Assembly: GCA_045863855.1 (NCBI GenBank) | Contig: BTVV01000051.1 | Coordinates: 1-40,077, forward strand | Reading direction: 5' to 3' | Length of the DNA stretch: 40,077 bases | From: Planctomycetota bacterium | Lineage (GTDB): Bacteria; Planctomycetota; SZUA-567; H5-PLA8 | Shown: piece after piece, positions 11,008-39,657 of the stretch | Numbering within the stretch: position 1 is the stretch's first letter | Layout: every line of letters begins with the position of its first letter | The notes under the pieces: generated by a model | What the model was told of the DNA's origin: nothing | Databases searched by the model: none | What the model saw: the letters and a program-made list of their open reading frames with translations, nothing else | Made by a program: the position numbers and the translations under genes

Positions 11008-11856
11008 ATGACCGGCTTTGCAAGCGAGTCGGCGCGGCGGCTGTACTGGTACGTCCACAACGGCGCGCACATGGTTTGCGGCCCCGATTTCGGGTGCGAC
11101 CGGCCCAGCTTCCACGGACACCAGATCATGTTCATGCTGCGCGGCCGCGGTTCGGGCGCCTATCGCGGAGAAGCGTGGGAGGCGCGCGGAGGGCAGGCGG
11201 TGCTGATGGACCTGCGCCAGCCGCACAGCTACTTTGCCGATCCGGACGATCCGTGGGAGATGTACTGGGTTCGCTTCGACGGGCCGGGCGTGGCGAATGT
11301 GACCAAAGCGCTGCTGGCCTCGGCCGGAAGCTGCGTCATTCCCTTCGCGTCGCGGGAGAAGCTCGACGAAGACTACCACGCGCTGGCTCGGTTGCTCGCC
11401 GAAGTGCCTCCCGGCTACGACGCGTGGGTCTGGCGGCATCTGGTGGCGCTCACAGCGAACCTGATCGAGGGACTGCGCCGTACGGGCCTGCCCGCCTCCC
11501 AGGATCTGACCGTCGCCCCCCACGCCGCGCCGGAGGGCATCGCCGCGGCCCTGGCTTACATGCGCTTTCAACACCAGCGCGCGCTCAGTATCGCGCAACT
11601 GGCGCAGACGGCGCACATGAGCGAATCGCATTTCATCCGCCGCTTCCGCGCCGTTACTGGATTCACGCCCATGGAGTACCTCGAGAAATTCCGCGTCGGC
11701 CGCGCCCAGGAACTGATGCAGGAGGAACCGGACCTCCGGCTGAGCGAGATCGCGCGCGCGGTGGGGTACGAAGATCCCGCCTATTTCAGCCGCGTTTTTC
11801 GCAAGCAGGTGGGTTTTTCGCCGCGCGCCTACCGCCGCCGGCTCCCGGTGGGGTAG
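11008..11856 (+). CDS. AraC family transcriptional regulator (cupin + HTH_18)
   Basis: Cupin N-domain (HSYFADPDDPWEMYWVRFDG); C-terminal LSEIARAVGYEDPAYFSRVFRKQVGFSPRAYR; start uncertain. Confidence 0.92.
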   Translation: MTGFASESARRLYWYVHNGAHMVCGPDFGCDRPSFHGHQIMFMLRGRGSGAYRGEAWEARGGQAVLMDLRQPHSYFADPDDPWEMYWVRFDGPGVANVTKALLASAGSCVIPFASREKLDEDYHALARLLAEVPPGYDAWVWRHLVALTANLIEGLRRTGLPASQDLTVAPHAAPEGIAAALAYMRFQHQRALSIAQLAQTAHMSESHFIRRFRAVTGFTPMEYLEKFRVGRAQELMQEEPDLRLSEIARAVGYEDPAYFSRVFRKQVGFSPRAYRRRLPVG

Positions 11857-26477: not shown

Positions 26478-27830
26478 ATGGCCCACGCGTCCGCACCGAT
26501 TCCGGTTCCCGCGCTACCCTCCGAACCCGTCCAGCGCTTCACCGGTCCGCTGGCGCGCTTTCTGCATATCCAGGCCGCCAGCGGGATCGTGCTGCTTATT
26601 TTCACCGTCCTGGCGCTCTTCCTGGCCAACTCGCAATGGTCCGAGCCTTTTCTGGCGCTTTGGAAGACCAAGGTGGGGTTTACGTTCGGCTCGTTCGAGT
26701 TCACGCATTCGCTCAAGCATTGGATCAACGACGGGCTGATGACGATCTTCTTCTTCGTCGTGGGCCTGGAAGTGAAGCGCGAGATGGCGGTGGGCGAGTT
26801 GCGCGAGTTGCGCCAGGCTTCGCTGCCGATCGCGGCCGCGATCGGCGGAATGGTGGCGCCGGCGGGACTGTACCTGGCTTTTCAGGCGGGGGAACCGGGC
26901 GCGCGCGGCTGGGGTATCCCGATGGCGACGGATATCGCCTTCGTCGTCGGCTGTCTGGCTCTGCTGGGCGAGCGCGTTCCGCACGGCCTGCGCATCTTGA
27001 TGCTCTCGCTGGCCATCGTCGATGACATCGGCGCGATTCTGGTGATCGCGGTCGGATACAGCGGGGCGCTGAATCTGGTCGCGCTGGCTTTGGGCGGAGC
27101 GGGGATTGCCGGAGTGCTGGCCATGCAGCGATTGGGCGTGCGAAGCGTCGGCCTGTACTCGATCGTGGGCGTGGGGATCTGGTTCGCTTTCCACGAATCG
27201 GGGATTCACGCCACGATTGCCGGTGTGATTCTGGGGGTGCTGACGCCGGTGCGCAGTTGGGTCTCGCAAGGGCTTTGGACCGAGATGGCGTCGAGCGCCA
27301 TGAGCTTCCTGCGCGGGGAGGATGCGGCCGAAGCGCAGCGCCGGCAGGTGTTGGAACGCGTGGAGGCCGCTTCGCGCGAGTCGCGTTCGCCCCAGGAGCG
27401 CCTTGAAGGCATGCTGCATCCGTGGGTCAGTTTCGTGATCATGCCGCTCTTCGCCTTCGCCAACGCCGGCGTGCCGGTGCAGCTTGGCGCGTTCGGCGAA
27501 CCCATCGCGGTGGCCGTGATGGTGGGCTTGGGCGTGGGCAAGCCTCTGGGGGTCGTGCTGGCCTGCCTCCTGGCCGTGAAGCTGGGCATCGCGCGGCTTC
27601 CGGAACGCGTCACCTGGAGCGCCATCGTGGCCGGGGGGTTCCTGGCCGGGATCGGCTTCACCATGGCGCTCTTTATCGCGGGCTTGGCGCTGGACGCGGA
27701 GTTGCTCGACACGGCCAAGATCGGGATCCTGGGCGGCTCGGCGCTAAGCGCCGTGGTGGGGATGGTGCTGTTGGTGGCGGTGCTGCCGAAGCCGGCCGGC
27801 GCCGAAGCCGGACTTGCCCATTCTCAATGA
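26478..27830 (+). CDS. nhaA: Na+/H+ antiporter NhaA
   Basis: WINDGLMTIFFFVVGLEVKRE, GWGIPMATDIAF, LAIVDDIGAI, SGIHATIAGV, PLFAFANAG, GIGFTMALFI. Confidence 0.95.
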   Translation: MAHASAPIPVPALPSEPVQRFTGPLARFLHIQAASGIVLLIFTVLALFLANSQWSEPFLALWKTKVGFTFGSFEFTHSLKHWINDGLMTIFFFVVGLEVKREMAVGELRELRQASLPIAAAIGGMVAPAGLYLAFQAGEPGARGWGIPMATDIAFVVGCLALLGERVPHGLRILMLSLAIVDDIGAILVIAVGYSGALNLVALALGGAGIAGVLAMQRLGVRSVGLYSIVGVGIWFAFHESGIHATIAGVILGVLTPVRSWVSQGLWTEMASSAMSFLRGEDAAEAQRRQVLERVEAASRESRSPQERLEGMLHPWVSFVIMPLFAFANAGVPVQLGAFGEPIAVAVMVGLGVGKPLGVVLACLLAVKLGIARLPERVTWSAIVAGGFLAGIGFTMALFIAGLALDAELLDTAKIGILGGSALSAVVGMVLLVAVLPKPAGAEAGLAHSQ

Positions 27831-28987: not shown

Positions 28988-29117
28988 CGCGAGCGTTGGC
29001 TGGTGGCCCTGTCACGCCTTCTCTTTCCGCGTACTTTTAGGAACGGCGCCATTGGCTGCGGGTGTAACCAACCCGTGCTTCAGCGTACGACGCTCGAGGA
29101 TCGTCGCGGACTTCGGT

Positions 29118-29288
29118 AGGCTGTGTGTTGCATGGGCGGTTCGCCGGACCCCTAGCGTTGGTCGAGTGGGCGTTGTTTGGATCGGGCGCGAAGAGCAGCC
29201 CAGTTTCTGGCGGTGAATGATTGAGCGGAGGCTTGAGGGTTAGCGGTCGGTGAGGGACGGAGCACGCCCACGGCGCTTGCTTCGAGGC
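29118..29288 (+). repeat. 171-bp direct repeat, copy 1 (body of a REP/REPIN-like element, about 29045-29297)
   Basis: Identical to 29869-30039 except one base (T29124 versus C29875); offset 751 bp. Confidence 0.95.
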
Positions 29289-29384
29289 GCCCGGCCACCT
29301 GCCTTTCCCTGAGTTTAGCGAACCTGTGAGGCCGGTGCAGGTGAGCTAAATAGGAATCCGGCTTCGAGGCTTTGCATACGTACG

Positions 29385-29720
29385 ATGTTCGCCGTCAGAT
29401 TAATCGCCATCGTTTGGCTACTTGGTGCGATCTACATTCTGGTGGCCAGTCGCCTCTCCCCTGGATTGTTTGGCACGATTACAATTGCCCTCGCGATTCC
29501 TGCGGGGATCGGCATCTTCGCTCGGCGGAGGTGGGCTGTTGTTCCGGCGGTGCTTCTGTGTGCAGCATGGGGAGTGTTTGCGATCTTGTTCATGGTAAAG
29601 GGTGCTGGGTTAACCCTGAATAATGTAGCTTTGCTTGTCTCGGCATTGGCGTGCGGAGTCATTGTCATTCATTGGCATCGCACAGGACGCGGATCCAACG
29701 TATGGATCGAGCAGCAATGA
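29385..29720 (+). CDS. Small hypothetical membrane protein (about 4 TM), cassette-like
   Basis: 111 aa, strongly hydrophobic, AT-richer codons; enclosed between the two 171-bp repeats. Confidence 0.6.
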   Translation: MFAVRLIAIVWLLGAIYILVASRLSPGLFGTITIALAIPAGIGIFARRRWAVVPAVLLCAAWGVFAILFMVKGAGLTLNNVALLVSALACGVIVIHWHRTGRGSNVWIEQQ

Positions 29721-29868
29721 AATGGCGCGACCGGCTGGAAATCCTGGCTGGTGGCTCGGGCAGCCCCTCTCGCCGCTCGTGAACGTGTCGCCCCTTCGGA
29801 TCTGGTGCCACGGGATGCGGCCGTTCGCAACCCTTGCGTCCACCGCACGAATGCTCCATGAACGTCGC

Positions 29869-30039
29869 AGGCTGCGTGTTGCATGGGCGGTTCGCCGGAC
29901 CCCTAGCGTTGGTCGAGTGGGCGTTGTTTGGATCGGGCGCGAAGAGCAGCCCAGTTTCTGGCGGTGAATGATTGAGCGGAGGCTTGAGGGTTAGCGGTCG
30001 GTGAGGGACGGAGCACGCCCACGGCGCTTGCTTCGAGGC
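29869..30039 (+). repeat. 171-bp direct repeat, copy 2 (body of a REP/REPIN-like element, about 29804-30044)
   Basis: Near-identical to 29118-29288. Confidence 0.95.
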
Positions 30040-30044
30040 ATTCG

Positions 30045-30233
30045 CTATGGGCTACCGGCCTTGGCGTTCTGCTCCAGCCGTTCGAGCCGGGCTTCCAGTG
30101 CGGCCAGGCGCCGTTCGAGTTCCTTTCTGCGCGTGCGATTGCGCAGCGCGGCGGCGATCCAGTCGGGAATATCGAAGGCGTGAACGATGAGCACGATGCC
30201 CAGCGTCCACGAAATCATTTCCAACGGAAACAT
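30045..30233 (-). CDS. Small hypothetical protein, single TM plus coiled coil
   Basis: GAGGAG RBS before ATG; hydrophobic N-terminus; LERRLAALEARLERLE heptads. Confidence 0.6.
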   Translation of the reverse strand: MFPLEMISWTLGIVLIVHAFDIPDWIAAALRNRTRRKELERRLAALEARLERLEQNAKAGSP

Positions 30234-35795: not shown

Positions 35796-35821
35796 GGCTA
35801 GAAAAAAAGGGTGAGTCTTGG

Positions 35822-35855
35822 AGCCGCGCTCGGGTGACCGGGCGCGGCTTTTTTT
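35822..35855 (+). terminator. Rho-independent terminator
   Basis: AGCCGCGCTCGG-GTGA-CCGGGCGCGGCT followed by a T-run. Confidence 0.9.
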
Positions 35856-36366
35856 GTGGGTTTGCGGGGCTTTTGATAACGGGGTCGGTTGGGGTCGAAG
35901 TGAGAGGTTGCAAGGTGCGTGGAATCGGTTTTTAAGGGTTTAGAGTGGTCTAGACGTGTGGGCGCACGAGGAGCAAAAGTGAGATCCTGCTATAATGCTG
36001 CTATAAATGGATGCCACAAAGCGTAAGATTGGCCCAACGGGACGCATAGCGTCCGGCGACTATGCACCTCGCGCTTTTGCGGCGCGCGGGAGGTGATGAA
36101 GCGGGGCGTCATGGGTGGGGTAGGAGTAAGGTGGATTGGAAGGGCGGGGGAGCGGATTGGAGCCCGTTCGAAGGCGCTCGTGTAATGACTTGGTAGTACA
36201 TCAAAATGAATGTGTGTCGTATCCGCAACGCGTACGTTTCTTGGCCTCAAGGAGCGGGAGCGGATTTCCCTTTTGTGGCCTGTTGACGTGTTGCGGTAAA
36301 AGAAATATGAACCTGGAAGTACAAGGTTGCATGAATGCGGTCGAAGACCAAGGTAGGCAGAAAATC

Positions 36367-36747
36367 ATGCACATTAAATTCTATCACGTGGTCTTAGTGG
36401 CGCTCCTTCTCGTTAGCGTATCTCGAGCGGAAGACGCAAAATTACGCGAGCTAGAGGCGCGTCTCGATTCGGCCCAATCCCAAACGGATATGAATATCGC
36501 GTCAGGAAAGATCGCTGAATATCTAGACAAGAAACTGATTGAAAAGGAAGCTGAAATTGCGAAGGACTTAGATCCCGAAGGAGTAAGGCTATTCACTGAA
36601 GCAGCGAAACTTTGGCGAGACTACCGTTTAGCCCAAGTTTTATTTGAGGGCGATCTTTATCGAGGCGGAACCATTCGTCCGCTAATTCATAACCAGACGT
36701 TTAGTCGGCTTACCCAAGAGCGGCTTTCGGCGCTATTTAAGGAGTAG
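36367..36747 (+). CDS. Lysozyme inhibitor LprI (DUF1311)-like secreted protein
   Basis: Signal peptide ending SRA-E; QSQTDMN, WRDYR, GGTIRPL, LTQERLSAL pattern; AT-richer codons. Confidence 0.7.
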   Translation: MHIKFYHVVLVALLLVSVSRAEDAKLRELEARLDSAQSQTDMNIASGKIAEYLDKKLIEKEAEIAKDLDPEGVRLFTEAAKLWRDYRLAQVLFEGDLYRGGTIRPLIHNQTFSRLTQERLSALFKE

Positions 36748-36853
36748 GGAGGGCGGTTGAAAATGCGGTTCCCGGCAGGCCAACTTGCTGAGGTTTTTCG
36801 TGAATGAGCAACCAAGGGCGGGTGGCAGGCAGGAATTTGTTTCGAAGTGCTAG

Positions 36854-36898
36854 GGAGCACGCGCACGGCGCTTGCTCCGCAGTACCCGGCGCCGGCCA
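36854..36898 (+). repeat. Diverged copy of the right end of the 29-kb REP-like element
   Basis: GGAGCACGCGCACGGCGCTTGCTCCGCAGTACCCGGC matches 29259-29295 at 31/37 positions; ends CCGGCCA. Confidence 0.8.
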
Positions 36899-36927
36899 AT
36901 TAGAAGGATCATCGCAAAGGGAAACTA

Positions 36928-37350
36928 ATGCTTATATTTTACGGCATTCACGAGTTCTCCAAGAAGGTCACTGACAAGGCTCAGGTCTTCTGCAAAACAT
37001 GCCAGACCAAGGTGGATGCCCTAGAGCATCAGAGTTTCAATATGGCTCATCTGTTTTTCATCCCGCTTATTCCGTTAGGAACCAAGAAAGTATGGATATG
37101 CCCTGAATGTGGCAATGATCCACATTGCAGGACAAGGACCTCCAGGGCGAAAAAGATCCTGCTTTGCATCCTAGGCTTGCCAATGCTCGGTGCGATCTGG
37201 TTCGTGGAGGGCAAGCCAGAAGATACCGGCTCGATGTGGGGTGTCCGAGCTGTGTTCACGGTTGGTTATTTGATTCTCCTGTATGTCACTATTAATCATC
37301 AGCCGTTCGTTGATTCAGAAGATGAGGGGAATAGCGAACCCTCGGCTTAA
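36928..37350 (+). CDS. Zinc-ribbon domain membrane protein
   Basis: CKTC...HLFFIPLIPLG...CPEC, then two TM segments. Confidence 0.72.
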   Translation: MLIFYGIHEFSKKVTDKAQVFCKTCQTKVDALEHQSFNMAHLFFIPLIPLGTKKVWICPECGNDPHCRTRTSRAKKILLCILGLPMLGAIWFVEGKPEDTGSMWGVRAVFTVGYLILLYVTINHQPFVDSEDEGNSEPSA

Positions 37351-37388
37351 CCGGTTTGGCGTGTCCTCGTGTTGCGTGGAAACCCTTG

Positions 37389-37421
37389 GGCGCTTGCTTC
37401 GCGGTACTCGGCATTCGGCCA
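37389..37421 (+). repeat. Further short copy of the REP-like element right end
   Basis: GGCGCTTGCTTCGCGGTACTCGGCATTCGGCCA; shares its core with 29272-29297, 30023-30044 and 36867-36898. Confidence 0.7.
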
Positions 37422-37453
37422 GTCGTCCCCTTTGTGCAGCGGGTGCGTTTAGG

Positions 37454-37550
37454 CCGCCCCTACAGGGCGGAACGGCTTTGGAGGTCGCTTACCCAGGGCG
37501 GCGGCGCGGGCGCCTTGCCCTGGGCTAACCAAGGTTGTGCCGTTGGCACA
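37454..37550. repeat. REP-like multi-hairpin element (CCCAGGG...CCCTGGGCT family)
   Basis: CCGCCC-CTACA-GGGCGG, CCCAGGGC...GCCCTGGG and TGTGCC-GTT-GGCACA hairpins. Confidence 0.7.
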
Positions 37551-37713
37551 AGGGTGGATGTTGGCCTTTGGGCCACGATCCTCGGCGGCGGTTGGCCGGA
37601 AGCGAACGGCCGTAGCGCAGGGGCACTGAGCACGGAGCAAGCTTACTGCGTTTGATCCGAGGCGCTCGGTGCACGGGATGCGGCGCGCGCCCACCTGCTG
37701 TTCGGAGGTTTTT

Positions 37714-38550
37714 ATGGCCGTTGATTATATCATTAATTTGCCCTGCGAACCCAAGCTGGCGTTCGGCACTGGAGATTTGCTTCAGGGTACTGGTGCAATT
37801 CTCGAGCTTCTAAAGGCGCGAAATCGTGCTGCGGCTATTGTTGAAATAGCTAAGGCTAAAGGAAAGAGTCCTTCTGAAATCTCAGTCACTGTTCGCGTCC
37901 TTACACCAGACGGAATAGAGCAACAACAGTCTGTTACCCACGGAACATTGGTTGAGCAGTGCCAGCCACTTGCTGCTCATGCGGCAGCATGCCGAAACTG
38001 CCCCGGCAACAGCTTGCAGACGGAATATGGATGTTACGGAGCTCTCAATTACCCTGTGCCTGCCAGCGCGGAACGATGGCTATTCGCTAAGCTTCAACCC
38101 CCCAGCCACGTTGGTGGGAATCTGTTCCTGCAATCGGTGAAGCAGTTTGATAATCGTGGCACGGAAGTCGAACGTATGCGCGCGGCCGGTTTATTTGAAA
38201 GCAAGCTGCCATTCACGACTACTCATCGCATTTCGTTTTTCAATCGCCCCACCTTCACATCGAGCCAATTGATCGAAGCGATTTTGGGAGTAGGGGAATC
38301 CCTGGACACTTGGCATTGCGGCGGAATTCTGCTTTGGCTTGGTGCTATTCAGATTGATGGCGTGGTGCCGGTCGAGCCTAGGCATGTGAACGATTTCTTG
38401 TCACTTCAAACCGTTGCCGACAGGCAATCGCGTACTTCGTTTTGTGTCGAAGAACCTCTGGACCATACTGGTGAATCGGCCTTCTACCACGTCCTCAAAG
38501 CCCTCTATACGGCATGGGTTCTTGGGGTGCCCATCCTTGTGAGCCCGTAG
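37714..38550 (+). CDS. Hypothetical protein with Cys cluster (possible metal binding)
   Basis: GGAGG RBS, ATG 37714; CRNCPGN...GCYGALNYP; AT-richer codons. Confidence 0.7.
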   Translation: MAVDYIINLPCEPKLAFGTGDLLQGTGAILELLKARNRAAAIVEIAKAKGKSPSEISVTVRVLTPDGIEQQQSVTHGTLVEQCQPLAAHAAACRNCPGNSLQTEYGCYGALNYPVPASAERWLFAKLQPPSHVGGNLFLQSVKQFDNRGTEVERMRAAGLFESKLPFTTTHRISFFNRPTFTSSQLIEAILGVGESLDTWHCGGILLWLGAIQIDGVVPVEPRHVNDFLSLQTVADRQSRTSFCVEEPLDHTGESAFYHVLKALYTAWVLGVPILVSP

Positions 38551-38704
38551 CTGGAAGAGTTTCGAATTTTAGGCTGGCCTAGGGTGGTGGTGCTGAATCC
38601 CTACCCATGACGATTGAGCGAGTGGACGAGGTGCAGAGGCCACGCGTGGGCGTTAGACTGCTCACACTTCGCGATTTCCAACTAGCTCCGAGAGAACATA
38701 CCGC

Positions 38705-39046
38705 ATGGCCAAGTACTTGATCTCTTTTCCCAGCGCCGCGATGGTCGTACCCGACGGCGAGTGGGAGGCGGTGGGGCGGGACGCGCACGCGGTGATCGAC
38801 GCGGCGAAGGCCGCCGGGGTCTACGTCTTCGGCGGCGGCATCGACGAAGCGGTCCCGCCGGCGCTCGTTGCGGCGGACGGCTCCGTGGCCGAAGGCGGCT
38901 ATCCGTGGGCGCCGCCGCTCAACGGCGGCTTCACCGTGCTTGAACTGCCGTCGCGCGAGGAGGCCGTCGCTTGGGCCGCTCGCCTCGCCCAAGCCTGCCG
39001 CTGCGCTCAAGAGTTGCGTGTGTTCCAATTCGATCCGCAGTCTTGA
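38705..39046 (+). CDS. YciI family protein
   Basis: KYLISF, AKAAGVYVFGGGI, GGFTVLELPSREEAVAWAARL, QELRVF. Confidence 0.82.
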   Translation: MAKYLISFPSAAMVVPDGEWEAVGRDAHAVIDAAKAAGVYVFGGGIDEAVPPALVAADGSVAEGGYPWAPPLNGGFTVLELPSREEAVAWAARLAQACRCAQELRVFQFDPQS

Positions 39047-39077
39047 GGGTGGATCGAGGCGGGCGTGCGGCGTTCAC

Positions 39078-39096
39078 CGCGTCCCTACGGGACGCG
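39078..39096. repeat. REP-like hairpin
   Basis: CGCGTCCC-TAC-GGGACGCG perfect 8-bp stem downstream of the YciI gene. Confidence 0.55.
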
Positions 39097-39309
39097 AAGG
39101 GCTTGCGGGGCGTGCGGGGATCGGGCGTTTGCTCCGCGGCCGGAAGGAATTCGAAAATGGGTGCGGAATTGTACGGGAAAAACGGCTAATCTGCTGGCGA
39201 GGCGTACGACGTTTCGTTTCGATAAAGGGTGTGACGCTCACGCGTCACAGGAGTTGGGTGGTCGGGCCGCCATCCCCACGCGCATAACCTGCGCAAGGGA
39301 GGTAGGCAC

Positions 39310-39657
39310 GTGTCCACCCATTCGGAAAAGGAATCCGCAACCCCCGCCGCCGGCTGTCTGGCTCGGATCTATTGGATCTTCGCGGGCAACGCCGTCCCGA
39401 TCTTCGCCGGTTTAATGATCGCCACGCGCAAGTACGATCTGCTTCCGCTCGCCGGAGTGTACTGGCTTGGCGTGGCGGCGTTGCTGGCCGTGCGGTGGTG
39501 CGATATTCGATTCTATCAAGGCAAGACCGCGGACGATCGACCGGCGGACCTGGGCACCTGGGTCCGTTACGCTCTTGCGGTCTTGGCGGCCAGCGGCTTG
39601 GGCTTCGGGGCGGCGTGGGGGTTGTACGTGTGGCAAGCGCCCACCGGGGCAGGTTAG
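39310..39657 (+). CDS. Hypothetical membrane protein (3 TM)
   Basis: GTG start after GGAGG; hydrophobic segments. Confidence 0.65.
   Translation: MSTHSEKESATPAAGCLARIYWIFAGNAVPIFAGLMIATRKYDLLPLAGVYWLGVAALLAVRWCDIRFYQGKTADDRPADLGTWVRYALAVLAASGLGFGAAWGLYVWQAPTGAG

What the first reader, a model, noticed from the sequence alone, without database searches (positions are those of the whole stretch)
35860..39110. Cassette-like array: REP-like element ends fused to attC remnants between co-oriented foreign ORFs (candidate integrase-independent gene-capture system)
Seen: four unrelated small + strand ORFs (LprI-like, Zn-ribbon, Cys-cluster protein, YciI), the first three visibly AT-richer. Several spacers reuse parts of the 29-kb element: right ends at 36854-36898 and 37389-37421 (all ending CGGCCA) and a left end GGTGCACGGGATGCGGC at 37668-37684 (compare 29804-29821). 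CCACCTGC precedes ORFs at both 29295 and 37691. attC-like pieces flank the genes: GGTAGGC/GTTCGGA/GTTAGAC cores shortly before starts (36352, 37700, 38652) and R''-5bp-L'' left arms over stop codons (AGCGAAC-CCTCG-GCTTAACC at 37333-37352; weaker GTCTTGA-GGGTG-GATCGAGG at 39040-39059). No attC is complete, and two break at CCGG next to a REP. Established: attC sites and REPs are both recognised as ssDNA hairpins, by IntI and by HuH RAYT nucleases respectively. Inference: a RAYT/REP system harvests or disperses integron cassettes into chromosomal arrays. I do not know a description of this.
Basis: partly seen in the sequence, partly recalled or inferred. Interest (0 to 1): 0.8.

Follow-up and report, generated by a model that had tools for sequence, protein, structure and literature searches.

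The report
Variable gene arrays behind centromere-like repeats
In this planctomycete about 25 copies of a repeat related to the chromosome-segregation (parS) site each head a one-way array of foreign genes that differs between sister species and is studded with the ends of single-strand transposase (RAYT) elements, which may be an integron-like way of collecting genes without an integrase, although passive accumulation in hotspots is not excluded.

Summary
The ORFs and REP-like ends are real. The claimed attC halves in the window score at background, and the core at 36352 belongs to an attI-like site. No integron integrase passes the cut-off here or in the family (0 of 17 genomes). The array starts at a ~150-bp 'leader' (35921-36066) with 26 copies in this genome, homologous to the parS cluster beside parB. 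Against a sister species, DNA before the leader is shared and DNA behind it is replaced (24 of 25 loci; 11 of 12 on spanning contigs). Low-GC cargo reads away from the leader (59 of 66), and RAYT-element ends share that polarity (19 of 19). In relatives these RAYT elements are multi-copy, and their two flanks never rejoin (0 of 8 traceable), mostly breaking at CG. Best reading (0.45): RAYT end-joining builds and reshuffles polar arrays at fixed platforms, with integron fragments as minor cargo. Main rival (0.35): passive hotspots colonised and trimmed by selfish elements. Not found described in 10 literature searches. No biochemical evidence.

The parts
35820..35851 (+). Intrinsic-terminator-like hairpin closing the upstream core operon (heparinase II/III-like gene)
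35921..36066 (+). Leader repeat (conserved core 35973-36004); 26 copies in the genome; old subfamily copy that lacks the parS palindrome carried upstream by younger copies
36274..36358 (+). attI-like segment with a -35-like hexamer at 36283; core at 36352-36358. Promoter role inferred only (sigma-70 scan found none)
36367..36747 (+). LprI-domain ORF, 47% GC, first gene behind the attI-like site; shared with G002, where it has a longer 3' end
36814..36898 (+). Decayed right end of a RAYT-derived element (REP1 hairpin 36854-36878)
36928..37350 (+). Zinc-ribbon membrane ORF, 48% GC; 94% identical protein in G002 but in another order relative to the next repeat block
37333..37352 (+). Claimed attC left arm over the stop codon: best left-arm score in the array but at genome background
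37389..37604 (+). Repeat block: half REP1 (37389-37421), REP2 element (37447-37554, same type as the flanks of the Y1 gene on C66; weak Rfam Acido-Lenti-1 hit below gathering score) and an element left end (37587-37599); lies before the Zn-ribbon gene in G002
37628..37698 (+). Degenerate REP1 hairpin fused to a piece of the left end of the C13-type RAYT element (37668-37684)
37714..38550 (+). Cys-cluster ORF, 278 aa, 52% GC, no Pfam or NCBIfam family; 8 other homologues; absent from the G002 locus
38705..39046 (+). YciI-like ORF, 70% GC; the G002 copy is only 77% identical in DNA
39079..39095 (.). Short palindromic repeat of a further family
28997..29297 (+). Second pile of RAYT relics without a leader: inverted right end of the C13-type RAYT (28997-29110), then a decayed RAYT 3' end with REP1 hairpin
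29385..29720 (+). Small membrane ORF whose G001 homologue lies in an attI-headed array and is followed by a decayed attC-like site
29746..30053 (+). Internally deleted RAYT element: C13-type left end (29746-29866) plus second copy of the 171-nt remnant and REP1

Best explanation
The window array is one of about 25 polar gene-collecting sites. Each starts with a fixed leader derived from (or homogenised with) the parS region beside parB. Behind it, RAYT (HUH Y1) elements with inverted hairpin ends and their deleted derivatives act as cut-and-join points. Shown: fixed leader, one-sided turnover, co-oriented cargo, polar RAYT relics, reordering of units, multi-copy RAYT elements whose two flanks are unrelated. 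Inferred: the RAYT nicks single-stranded DNA next to an element end and transfers that end onto a short dinucleotide (CG for the TIR family) in any partner strand, so each end is joined independently. Joining a right end to incoming foreign DNA adds a gene; joining within the array deletes or permutes units; recombination between leaders and between repeats spreads units among sites. Genes joined just upstream of their start codon, in the leader's direction, are kept, probably because the leader or the element transcribes them. Pieces of other bacteria's integrons (attI plus 1-3 cassettes) enter as one kind of cargo and their attC sites decay because no IntI is present.
For: Leader: 26 copies here, 27 matches in G002, a separate family with its own parS variant in G001; same palindrome three times beside parB in G000, G001, G002. 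One-sided turnover: aligned fraction median 1.0 upstream, 0.10 downstream, lower in 24 of 25 loci; 11 of 12 loci differ where one contig spans the site. Low-GC cargo on the leader strand 59 of 66, control 18 of 27, Fisher p 0.014. REP1 copies behind leaders 19 of 19 co-oriented. RAYT-type genes inside leader arrays and co-oriented: 6 of 10 in G001, 4 of 7 Y1 genes in G002. Nine G001 elements of 779-782 bp, 93-99% identical, with HUH and Y..NP motifs. A low-GC ORF starts within 150 nt of 18 of 33 right ends, control 457 of 2000. Of 13 whole elements, 8 have a left flank traceable to a repeat elsewhere; in 0 of 8 does it continue into the element's own right flank; the continuation starts with CG in 6, ties in 1, not in 1; 3 of 5 traceable right flanks are preceded by CG (about 0.1 expected from base composition). 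Two order swaps between G000 and G002. TnpA-REP cleaves at a dinucleotide and joins a foreign oligonucleotide in vitro (PMC8266576, passages).
Against: No gene was found moved between two leader loci with its junction; cross-locus homologues are only 28-66% identical. Unmatched flanks also arise from adjacent deletion or recombination between copies of ordinary IS (PMC11708052, abstract). Only 7 of 80 AT-rich islands of 1 kb or more lie near a leader and 11 near REP1; 17 of 36 REP1 copies are not behind a leader on the same contig. At least six unrelated repeat families, IS66 and an IS256-like element share these sites, as in any neutral dump. No joint skipping a unit was seen in four runs (contigs only). 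The C13 RAYT scores 64 bits, under the NF047646 cut-off of 80, and no intact RAYT with REP1 ends was found. The CG rule was shown for the TIR family of the relatives, not for the window's own repeats. No sigma-70-type promoter was called in the leader. G001 leader sites mostly are not at G000's positions.
Confidence: 0.45

Rival explanations
1. Passive hotspots. Foreign DNA is exchanged by homologous recombination at flanking genes and repeats; RAYT elements, REPs and IS merely colonise the dispensable AT-rich DNA and trim it by adjacent deletion. The leader is a dispersed parS-bearing or promoter repeat kept alike by gene conversion, and polarity comes from transcription or replication direction.
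For: Many repeat families pile up together; most islands have no leader; young leaders are closer to paralogues than to positional orthologues (C52 0.99 vs 0.89, C82 0.96 vs 0.88), which shows recombination between sites without needing a RAYT; REP1 copies away from leaders mostly follow contig GC skew too (9 of 13 scored, the misses including 3 inverted partners); MGE-poor hotspots driven by homologous recombination are known (PMC5635113, abstract).
Against: It does not explain why turnover stops sharply at the leader in 24 of 25 loci, why element ends abut start regions, or the CG junctions. The replication link is weak once the array is excluded (13 of 21; 14 of 20).
Confidence: 0.35
2. Decayed integrons. 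The arrays are former integron cassette arrays (CALINs) that lost intI, or cassettes placed by an IntI acting in trans; RAYTs came later.
For: attI-like heads and complete attC sites on C1 and C3 and in G001 and G002; the attI-like motif lies just behind intI in 2 of 30 phylum loci; IntI passes the cut-off in 52 of 301 phylum genomes; IntI can insert cassettes at non-att sites (10.1101/2022.09.11.507474, abstract).
Against: No IntI in 17 family genomes; the leader is absent from 30 intI loci and their 20 widened versions; young, nearly identical leaders head arrays without any attC; the model finds only 4, 6 and 5 attC in the three genomes, mostly away from leaders (first 150 candidates scored per genome).
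Confidence: 0.1
3. The leader is one end (att arm) of an unidentified integrative element with a tyrosine recombinase, and the arrays are its decayed cargo.
For: The leader has tandem direct repeats like arm-type sites (recalled resemblance, alignment); each of G000 and G002 has a leader at a site where the other has none.
Against: No recombinase among 113 cargo ORFs scanned out of 148 called; no tRNA in 42 loci; no second end or target duplication seen at the site compared base by base; the leader aligns to the parB-proximal parS unit; not found outside two species.
Confidence: 0.07

Closest known systems
REPtrons / TIRtrons: RAYT (TnpA-REP, TIRYT) genes with REP or terminal-inverted-repeat flanks, and REPINs (PMC3733652, PMC6006769, 10.1101/119735, PMC8266576; passages read)
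   Same: HUH-Y1 enzymes with the class 2 Y..NP motif, inverted hairpin ends, non-autonomous deleted derivatives dispersed in intergenic DNA.
   Different: RAYTs are described as mostly single-copy and domesticated; here whole elements are multi-copy and 93-99% identical (G001), sit in polar arrays with foreign genes, and carry unrelated flanks. No cargo role is described in the passages read.
Integrons and CALINs
   Same: Fixed platform, one-directional array of small foreign ORFs, turnover and reordering; real attI-like and attC fragments are present.
   Different: No IntI; most units lack attC; about 25 platforms per chromosome; the platform is parS-related.
rAID-1 orphan-immunity arrays of Bacteroidales (10.1101/471110, passages read)
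   Same: Co-directional low-GC genes, many immunity-like (Imm33, SMI1/KNR4, SUFU, ankyrin, HEAT, LRR), separated by repeats.
   Different: rAID-1 has one XerD-like recombinase at the head; here none, and the repeats are RAYT ends.
TnpA-REP with prochlorosin (procA) genes in picocyanobacteria (10.1101/2020.03.09.984088, whole main text read)
   Same: Full and truncated RAYT copies interspersed with variable genes; a diversifying role was proposed.
   Different: One gene family, face-to-face orientation, no platform repeat; the authors later found no strong evidence for or against causality.
MITE-flanked integron mobilisation units (PMC3184786, passages read)
   Same: Integron fragments bounded by small non-autonomous repeats.
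   Different: Those are flanked by two identical MITEs with a 5-bp target duplication; here no duplication and HUH-type ends.

Membership tests
Integron | IntI integrase next to the array | tested here: not met
   Best TIGR02249 piece 75 bits against cut-off 265; 0 of 17 family genomes; positive control 52 of 301 phylum genomes. Assembly is 94% complete.
Integron | attI site at the head of the array | tested here: inconclusive
   36274-36358 is homologous to heads of attC arrays; its 3' motif follows intI in 2 of 30 loci, but the full profile does not hit intI loci.
Integron / CALIN | attC site after each cassette (at least two per cluster) | tested here: not met
   None in the window; met on C1 and C3 only.
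REPtron / TIRtron | HUH-Y1 gene of the RAYT clade in the genome | tested here: met
   C13 protein: HUH and Y..NP motifs, NF047646 64 bits (under cut-off 80); G002 protein L108 104 bits (over); C66 protein scores as IS200-type, 61 bits over 55.
REPtron / TIRtron | Gene flanked by inverted hairpin ends whose copies are dispersed | tested here: met
REPtron (classic) | GTAG-type 5' tag and single-copy, non-transposing RAYT | tested here: not met
   Ends carry another tag; nine near-identical copies in G001.
REPtron / TIRtron | Cleavage and strand transfer at the ends by the cognate enzyme | not testable with these tools
   Only junction patterns.
IS200/IS605 | Precise insertion after a fixed tetra- or pentanucleotide, flanks contiguous | tested here: not met
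   No common 4-5-nt target; flanks contiguous in 0 of 8 traceable cases. Feature recalled plus PMC5027513 abstract.
parS centromere | 16-bp palindrome clustered beside chromosomal parB | tested here: met
   Three copies beside parB in G000, G001, G002; also beside parB in G003 and G014; the G001 variant is the same at parB and in its dispersed copies. The parS name itself is recalled. The window's own leader lacks the palindrome.
parS centromere | ParB binding at the dispersed copies | not testable with these tools
   No binding data.
rAID-1 | 5' XerD-like recombinase gene | tested here: not met
   None among 113 scanned cargo ORFs.

The most novel reading that the evidence does not exclude
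A categorically new, integrase-free gene-capture system: copies of the chromosome's own centromere region serve as about 25 parallel landing platforms at which multi-copy RAYT elements join foreign single-stranded DNA (immunity genes, integron pieces) end by end at a dinucleotide, building and reshuffling expressed arrays. This would give RAYTs the host function that is still missing.
Probability: 0.28. Interest if true: 0.87.

Novelty: new variant of a known kind. Interest (0 to 1): 0.62.

Why it matters
[quoted passage not shown] This genus offers sharp element ends, a predicted joining dinucleotide, near-identical active copies and fixed platforms, so gene capture by an HUH enzyme becomes directly testable. 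Even under the passive reading, a dispersed parS-derived repeat that marks the 5' edge of one-sided HGT hotspots links chromosome segregation sites to genome plasticity in a way I did not find described (paper searches).

Tried and rejected
attC remnants in the window: rejected. A loose pattern scan for attC arms gave hundreds of chance hits and was dropped. Leader as structured RNA: consensus energy -6.6 kcal/mol, no covariation (23 sequences). Leader as tRNA-linked attachment site: 0 tRNA in 42 loci. Leader as intI promoter relic: no hit in 30 plus 20 intI loci. Leader elsewhere: pattern in 2 of 301 phylum genomes, 1 metagenome contig; two viral hits of a shorter pattern were not examined. 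Replication-strand rule: 23 of 24 and 21 of 26 by raw GC skew fell to 13 of 21 and 14 of 20 with controls: not established. LprI homologues in other planctomycetes to test cassette origin: only G000 and G002 of 301. Cys ORF: 9 hits including itself, no context; Atlas gives only unnamed clusters. Leader tree: the G000 young clade has only 93/96 support and 5 leaders had no anchor. ORF calls in cargo are heuristic (148 ORFs in 38 regions; 97 same strand, 51 opposite before the low-GC filter). The junction dinucleotide of the REP1 and C13-type ends, the families present in the window, remains open. No supplementary files were read; those of PMC6006769 and PMC3733652 may list these repeats.
Full report
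Setting. The window is contig C51 of a 6.93-Mb, 63.8% GC assembly in 287 contigs. The two closest records with a related RAYT are titled Planctomycetota. G002 is a sister species (shared flanks 84-96% identical); G001 is a more distant member of the genus.

Observation. The attC reading fails in the window. Arm matrices from 12 complete attC sites put the claimed arms at genome background, and a covariance model gives at most 11.1 bits, against 29-62 bits for non-training sites in G001 and G002. The core at 36352 ends a segment homologous to sites that head small arrays with complete attC on C3 and C1 and in G001 and G002; its 3' motif lies about 190-390 bp behind intI in 2 of 30 phylum loci. 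I read it as an attI-like site, so LprI is probably a former first cassette. IntI is not found here or in 17 family genomes, though it passes the cut-off in 52 of 301 phylum genomes.

The repeats. The 29-kb element is a decayed RAYT 3' end plus hairpin; its neighbours match the two ends of an intact RAYT on C13. The hairpin (REP1) has 36 copies at E<1e-4, some in inverted pairs around RAYT remnants, that is REPIN-like. The element at 37447-37554 matches the flanks of a second Y1 gene on C66. 29 of 36 REP1 copies lie within 400 bp of an AT-rich island, against 7.4% of random positions.

The leader. 35921-36066 is a repeat with 26 copies, 27 matches in G002 and none beyond the palindrome in the other 29 relatives; its core pattern occurs in 2 of 301 phylum genomes. 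Younger copies carry a 16-bp palindrome that also stands three times directly upstream of parB in G000, G001 and G002, and the leader aligns with the outermost of these units. Exact palindrome counts are 14, 12 and 33 in G000, G002 and G001; G001 uses its own variant both at parB and in its own leader family. I call it parS from recalled knowledge and position. Old leaders, including the window's, pair with their positional orthologues; a young subfamily is closer to paralogues than to orthologues, which points to conversion between sites (moderate support). Each species has a leader at a site where the other has none.

Turnover. For 25 G002 leader loci, 2.5 kb upstream aligns to G000 with median 1.0 and 2.5 kb downstream with median 0.10; lower in 24 of 25. 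G000 is fragmented and AT-rich contigs may be missing, so I repeated this for the 12 loci spanned by one contig: 11 differ, one is identical. At this locus G002 has an extra first ORF, lacks the Cys ORF and has the 37389-37604 block before, not after, the Zn-ribbon gene; on C15 two genes are swapped as well. A single metagenome contig joins a C236-type leader to the second C79 gene (could be a chimera). Low-GC cargo lies on the leader strand in 59 of 66 cases (control 18 of 27) and REP1 in 19 of 19. Cargo is mostly without family; named ones include immunity-like domains, a toxin-antitoxin-like pair, glyoxalase, a DNA methylase and IS66 (113 of 148 ORFs scanned). No recombinase and no tRNA were found.

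Mechanistic clues. In G001 nine RAYT elements of 779-782 bp are 93-99% identical, with sharp inverted ends and no target duplication; 6 of 10 RAYT-type genes in G001 and 4 of 7 Y1 genes in G002 lie co-oriented within about 5 kb behind a leader. A low-GC ORF starts within 150 nt of 18 of 33 well-preserved right ends (control 23%), and only 2 of 33 have a gene ending there instead. Among 13 whole elements, 8 left flanks can be traced to a repeat present elsewhere; none continues into the element's own right flank, and the break precedes CG in 6, ties in 1 and differs in 1; 3 of 5 traceable right flanks follow CG. This fits independent joining of each end at a dinucleotide, as TnpA-REP does in vitro (PMC8266576, passages). 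It fits adjacent deletion equally well (PMC11708052, abstract), so it shows end-driven rearrangement, not yet capture. Integron fragments end at RAYT-type ends on C3 and in L260 and L263, but at another repeat on C1, and others (C23, C123) stand alone.

Against. Most AT-rich islands have no leader (7 of 80). No gene was caught moving between loci. Four sequencing runs show no unit-skipping joint. Many selfish repeats share the sites. No intact RAYT with REP1 ends was found. The tie to replication direction is weak, so fork targeting as known for IS608 (PMC5027513, abstract and section titles) remains only a possibility.

Literature seen. Whole main text: 10.1101/2020.03.09.984088. Passages: PMC3184786, PMC6006769, 10.1101/119735 (76), PMC8266576, PMC3733652, 10.1101/471110 (108), 10.1101/2024.07.17.603846 (126). 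Abstract and outline: PMC5635113, 10.1101/2022.09.11.507474 (109), PMC5027513, PMC11708052. Ten searches returned no description of parS-related platforms heading RAYT-studded arrays; the library lacks most subscription journals and no supplements were read.

Verdict. It works like an integron in layout but is not one. RAYT-driven building 0.45, passive hotspot 0.35, decayed integron 0.10, unknown integrative element 0.07. New variant of a known kind; interest 0.62.

Noticed in passing
window 39227-39275 (+): Rfam nhaA-I riboswitch-type RNA (48.3 bits, gathering 37) upstream of a 115-aa membrane ORF at 39310-39657; an nhaA gene lies at 26478-27830.
   Followed up: no
L114:2640-4060 (G000 C1) and L013:1210-2760 (G000 C3): Two intact mini-CALINs: attI-like site, three cassettes, two complete attC and a half attC, with no intI.
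   Followed up: partly
G000 C23 near 44,600 and C123 near 11,100-11,540: Solitary cassettes with attC arms away from leaders.
   Followed up: partly
L061:2827 and L079:1285: In these planctomycete integrons the attI-like motif lies behind intI in the same direction as the integrase gene.
   Followed up: partly
L265-L271 (G010): Another genus of the family also has parS-type palindromes dispersed inside its own repeats, far from parB.
   Followed up: partly
L028 near 336, L094, L161, L014: Several unrelated cargo ORFs end in a shared ~45-nt tail that supplies their last codons, in three species.
   Followed up: partly
L161:4150-5360 (G001): An Rhs-core fragment with a C-terminal tip and a likely immunity gene sits inside a leader array.
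   Followed up: no
L087:5446-6183 (G002): Cargo ORF with an aminoglycoside adenylyltransferase C-terminal domain.
   Followed up: no
window 37714-38550: The Cys-cluster protein forms a small unnamed family with a confident predicted fold (pTM 0.83) that matches no named family.
   Followed up: partly
L145, L146: Two viral contigs hold the leader's short tandem repeat; not examined.
   Followed up: no
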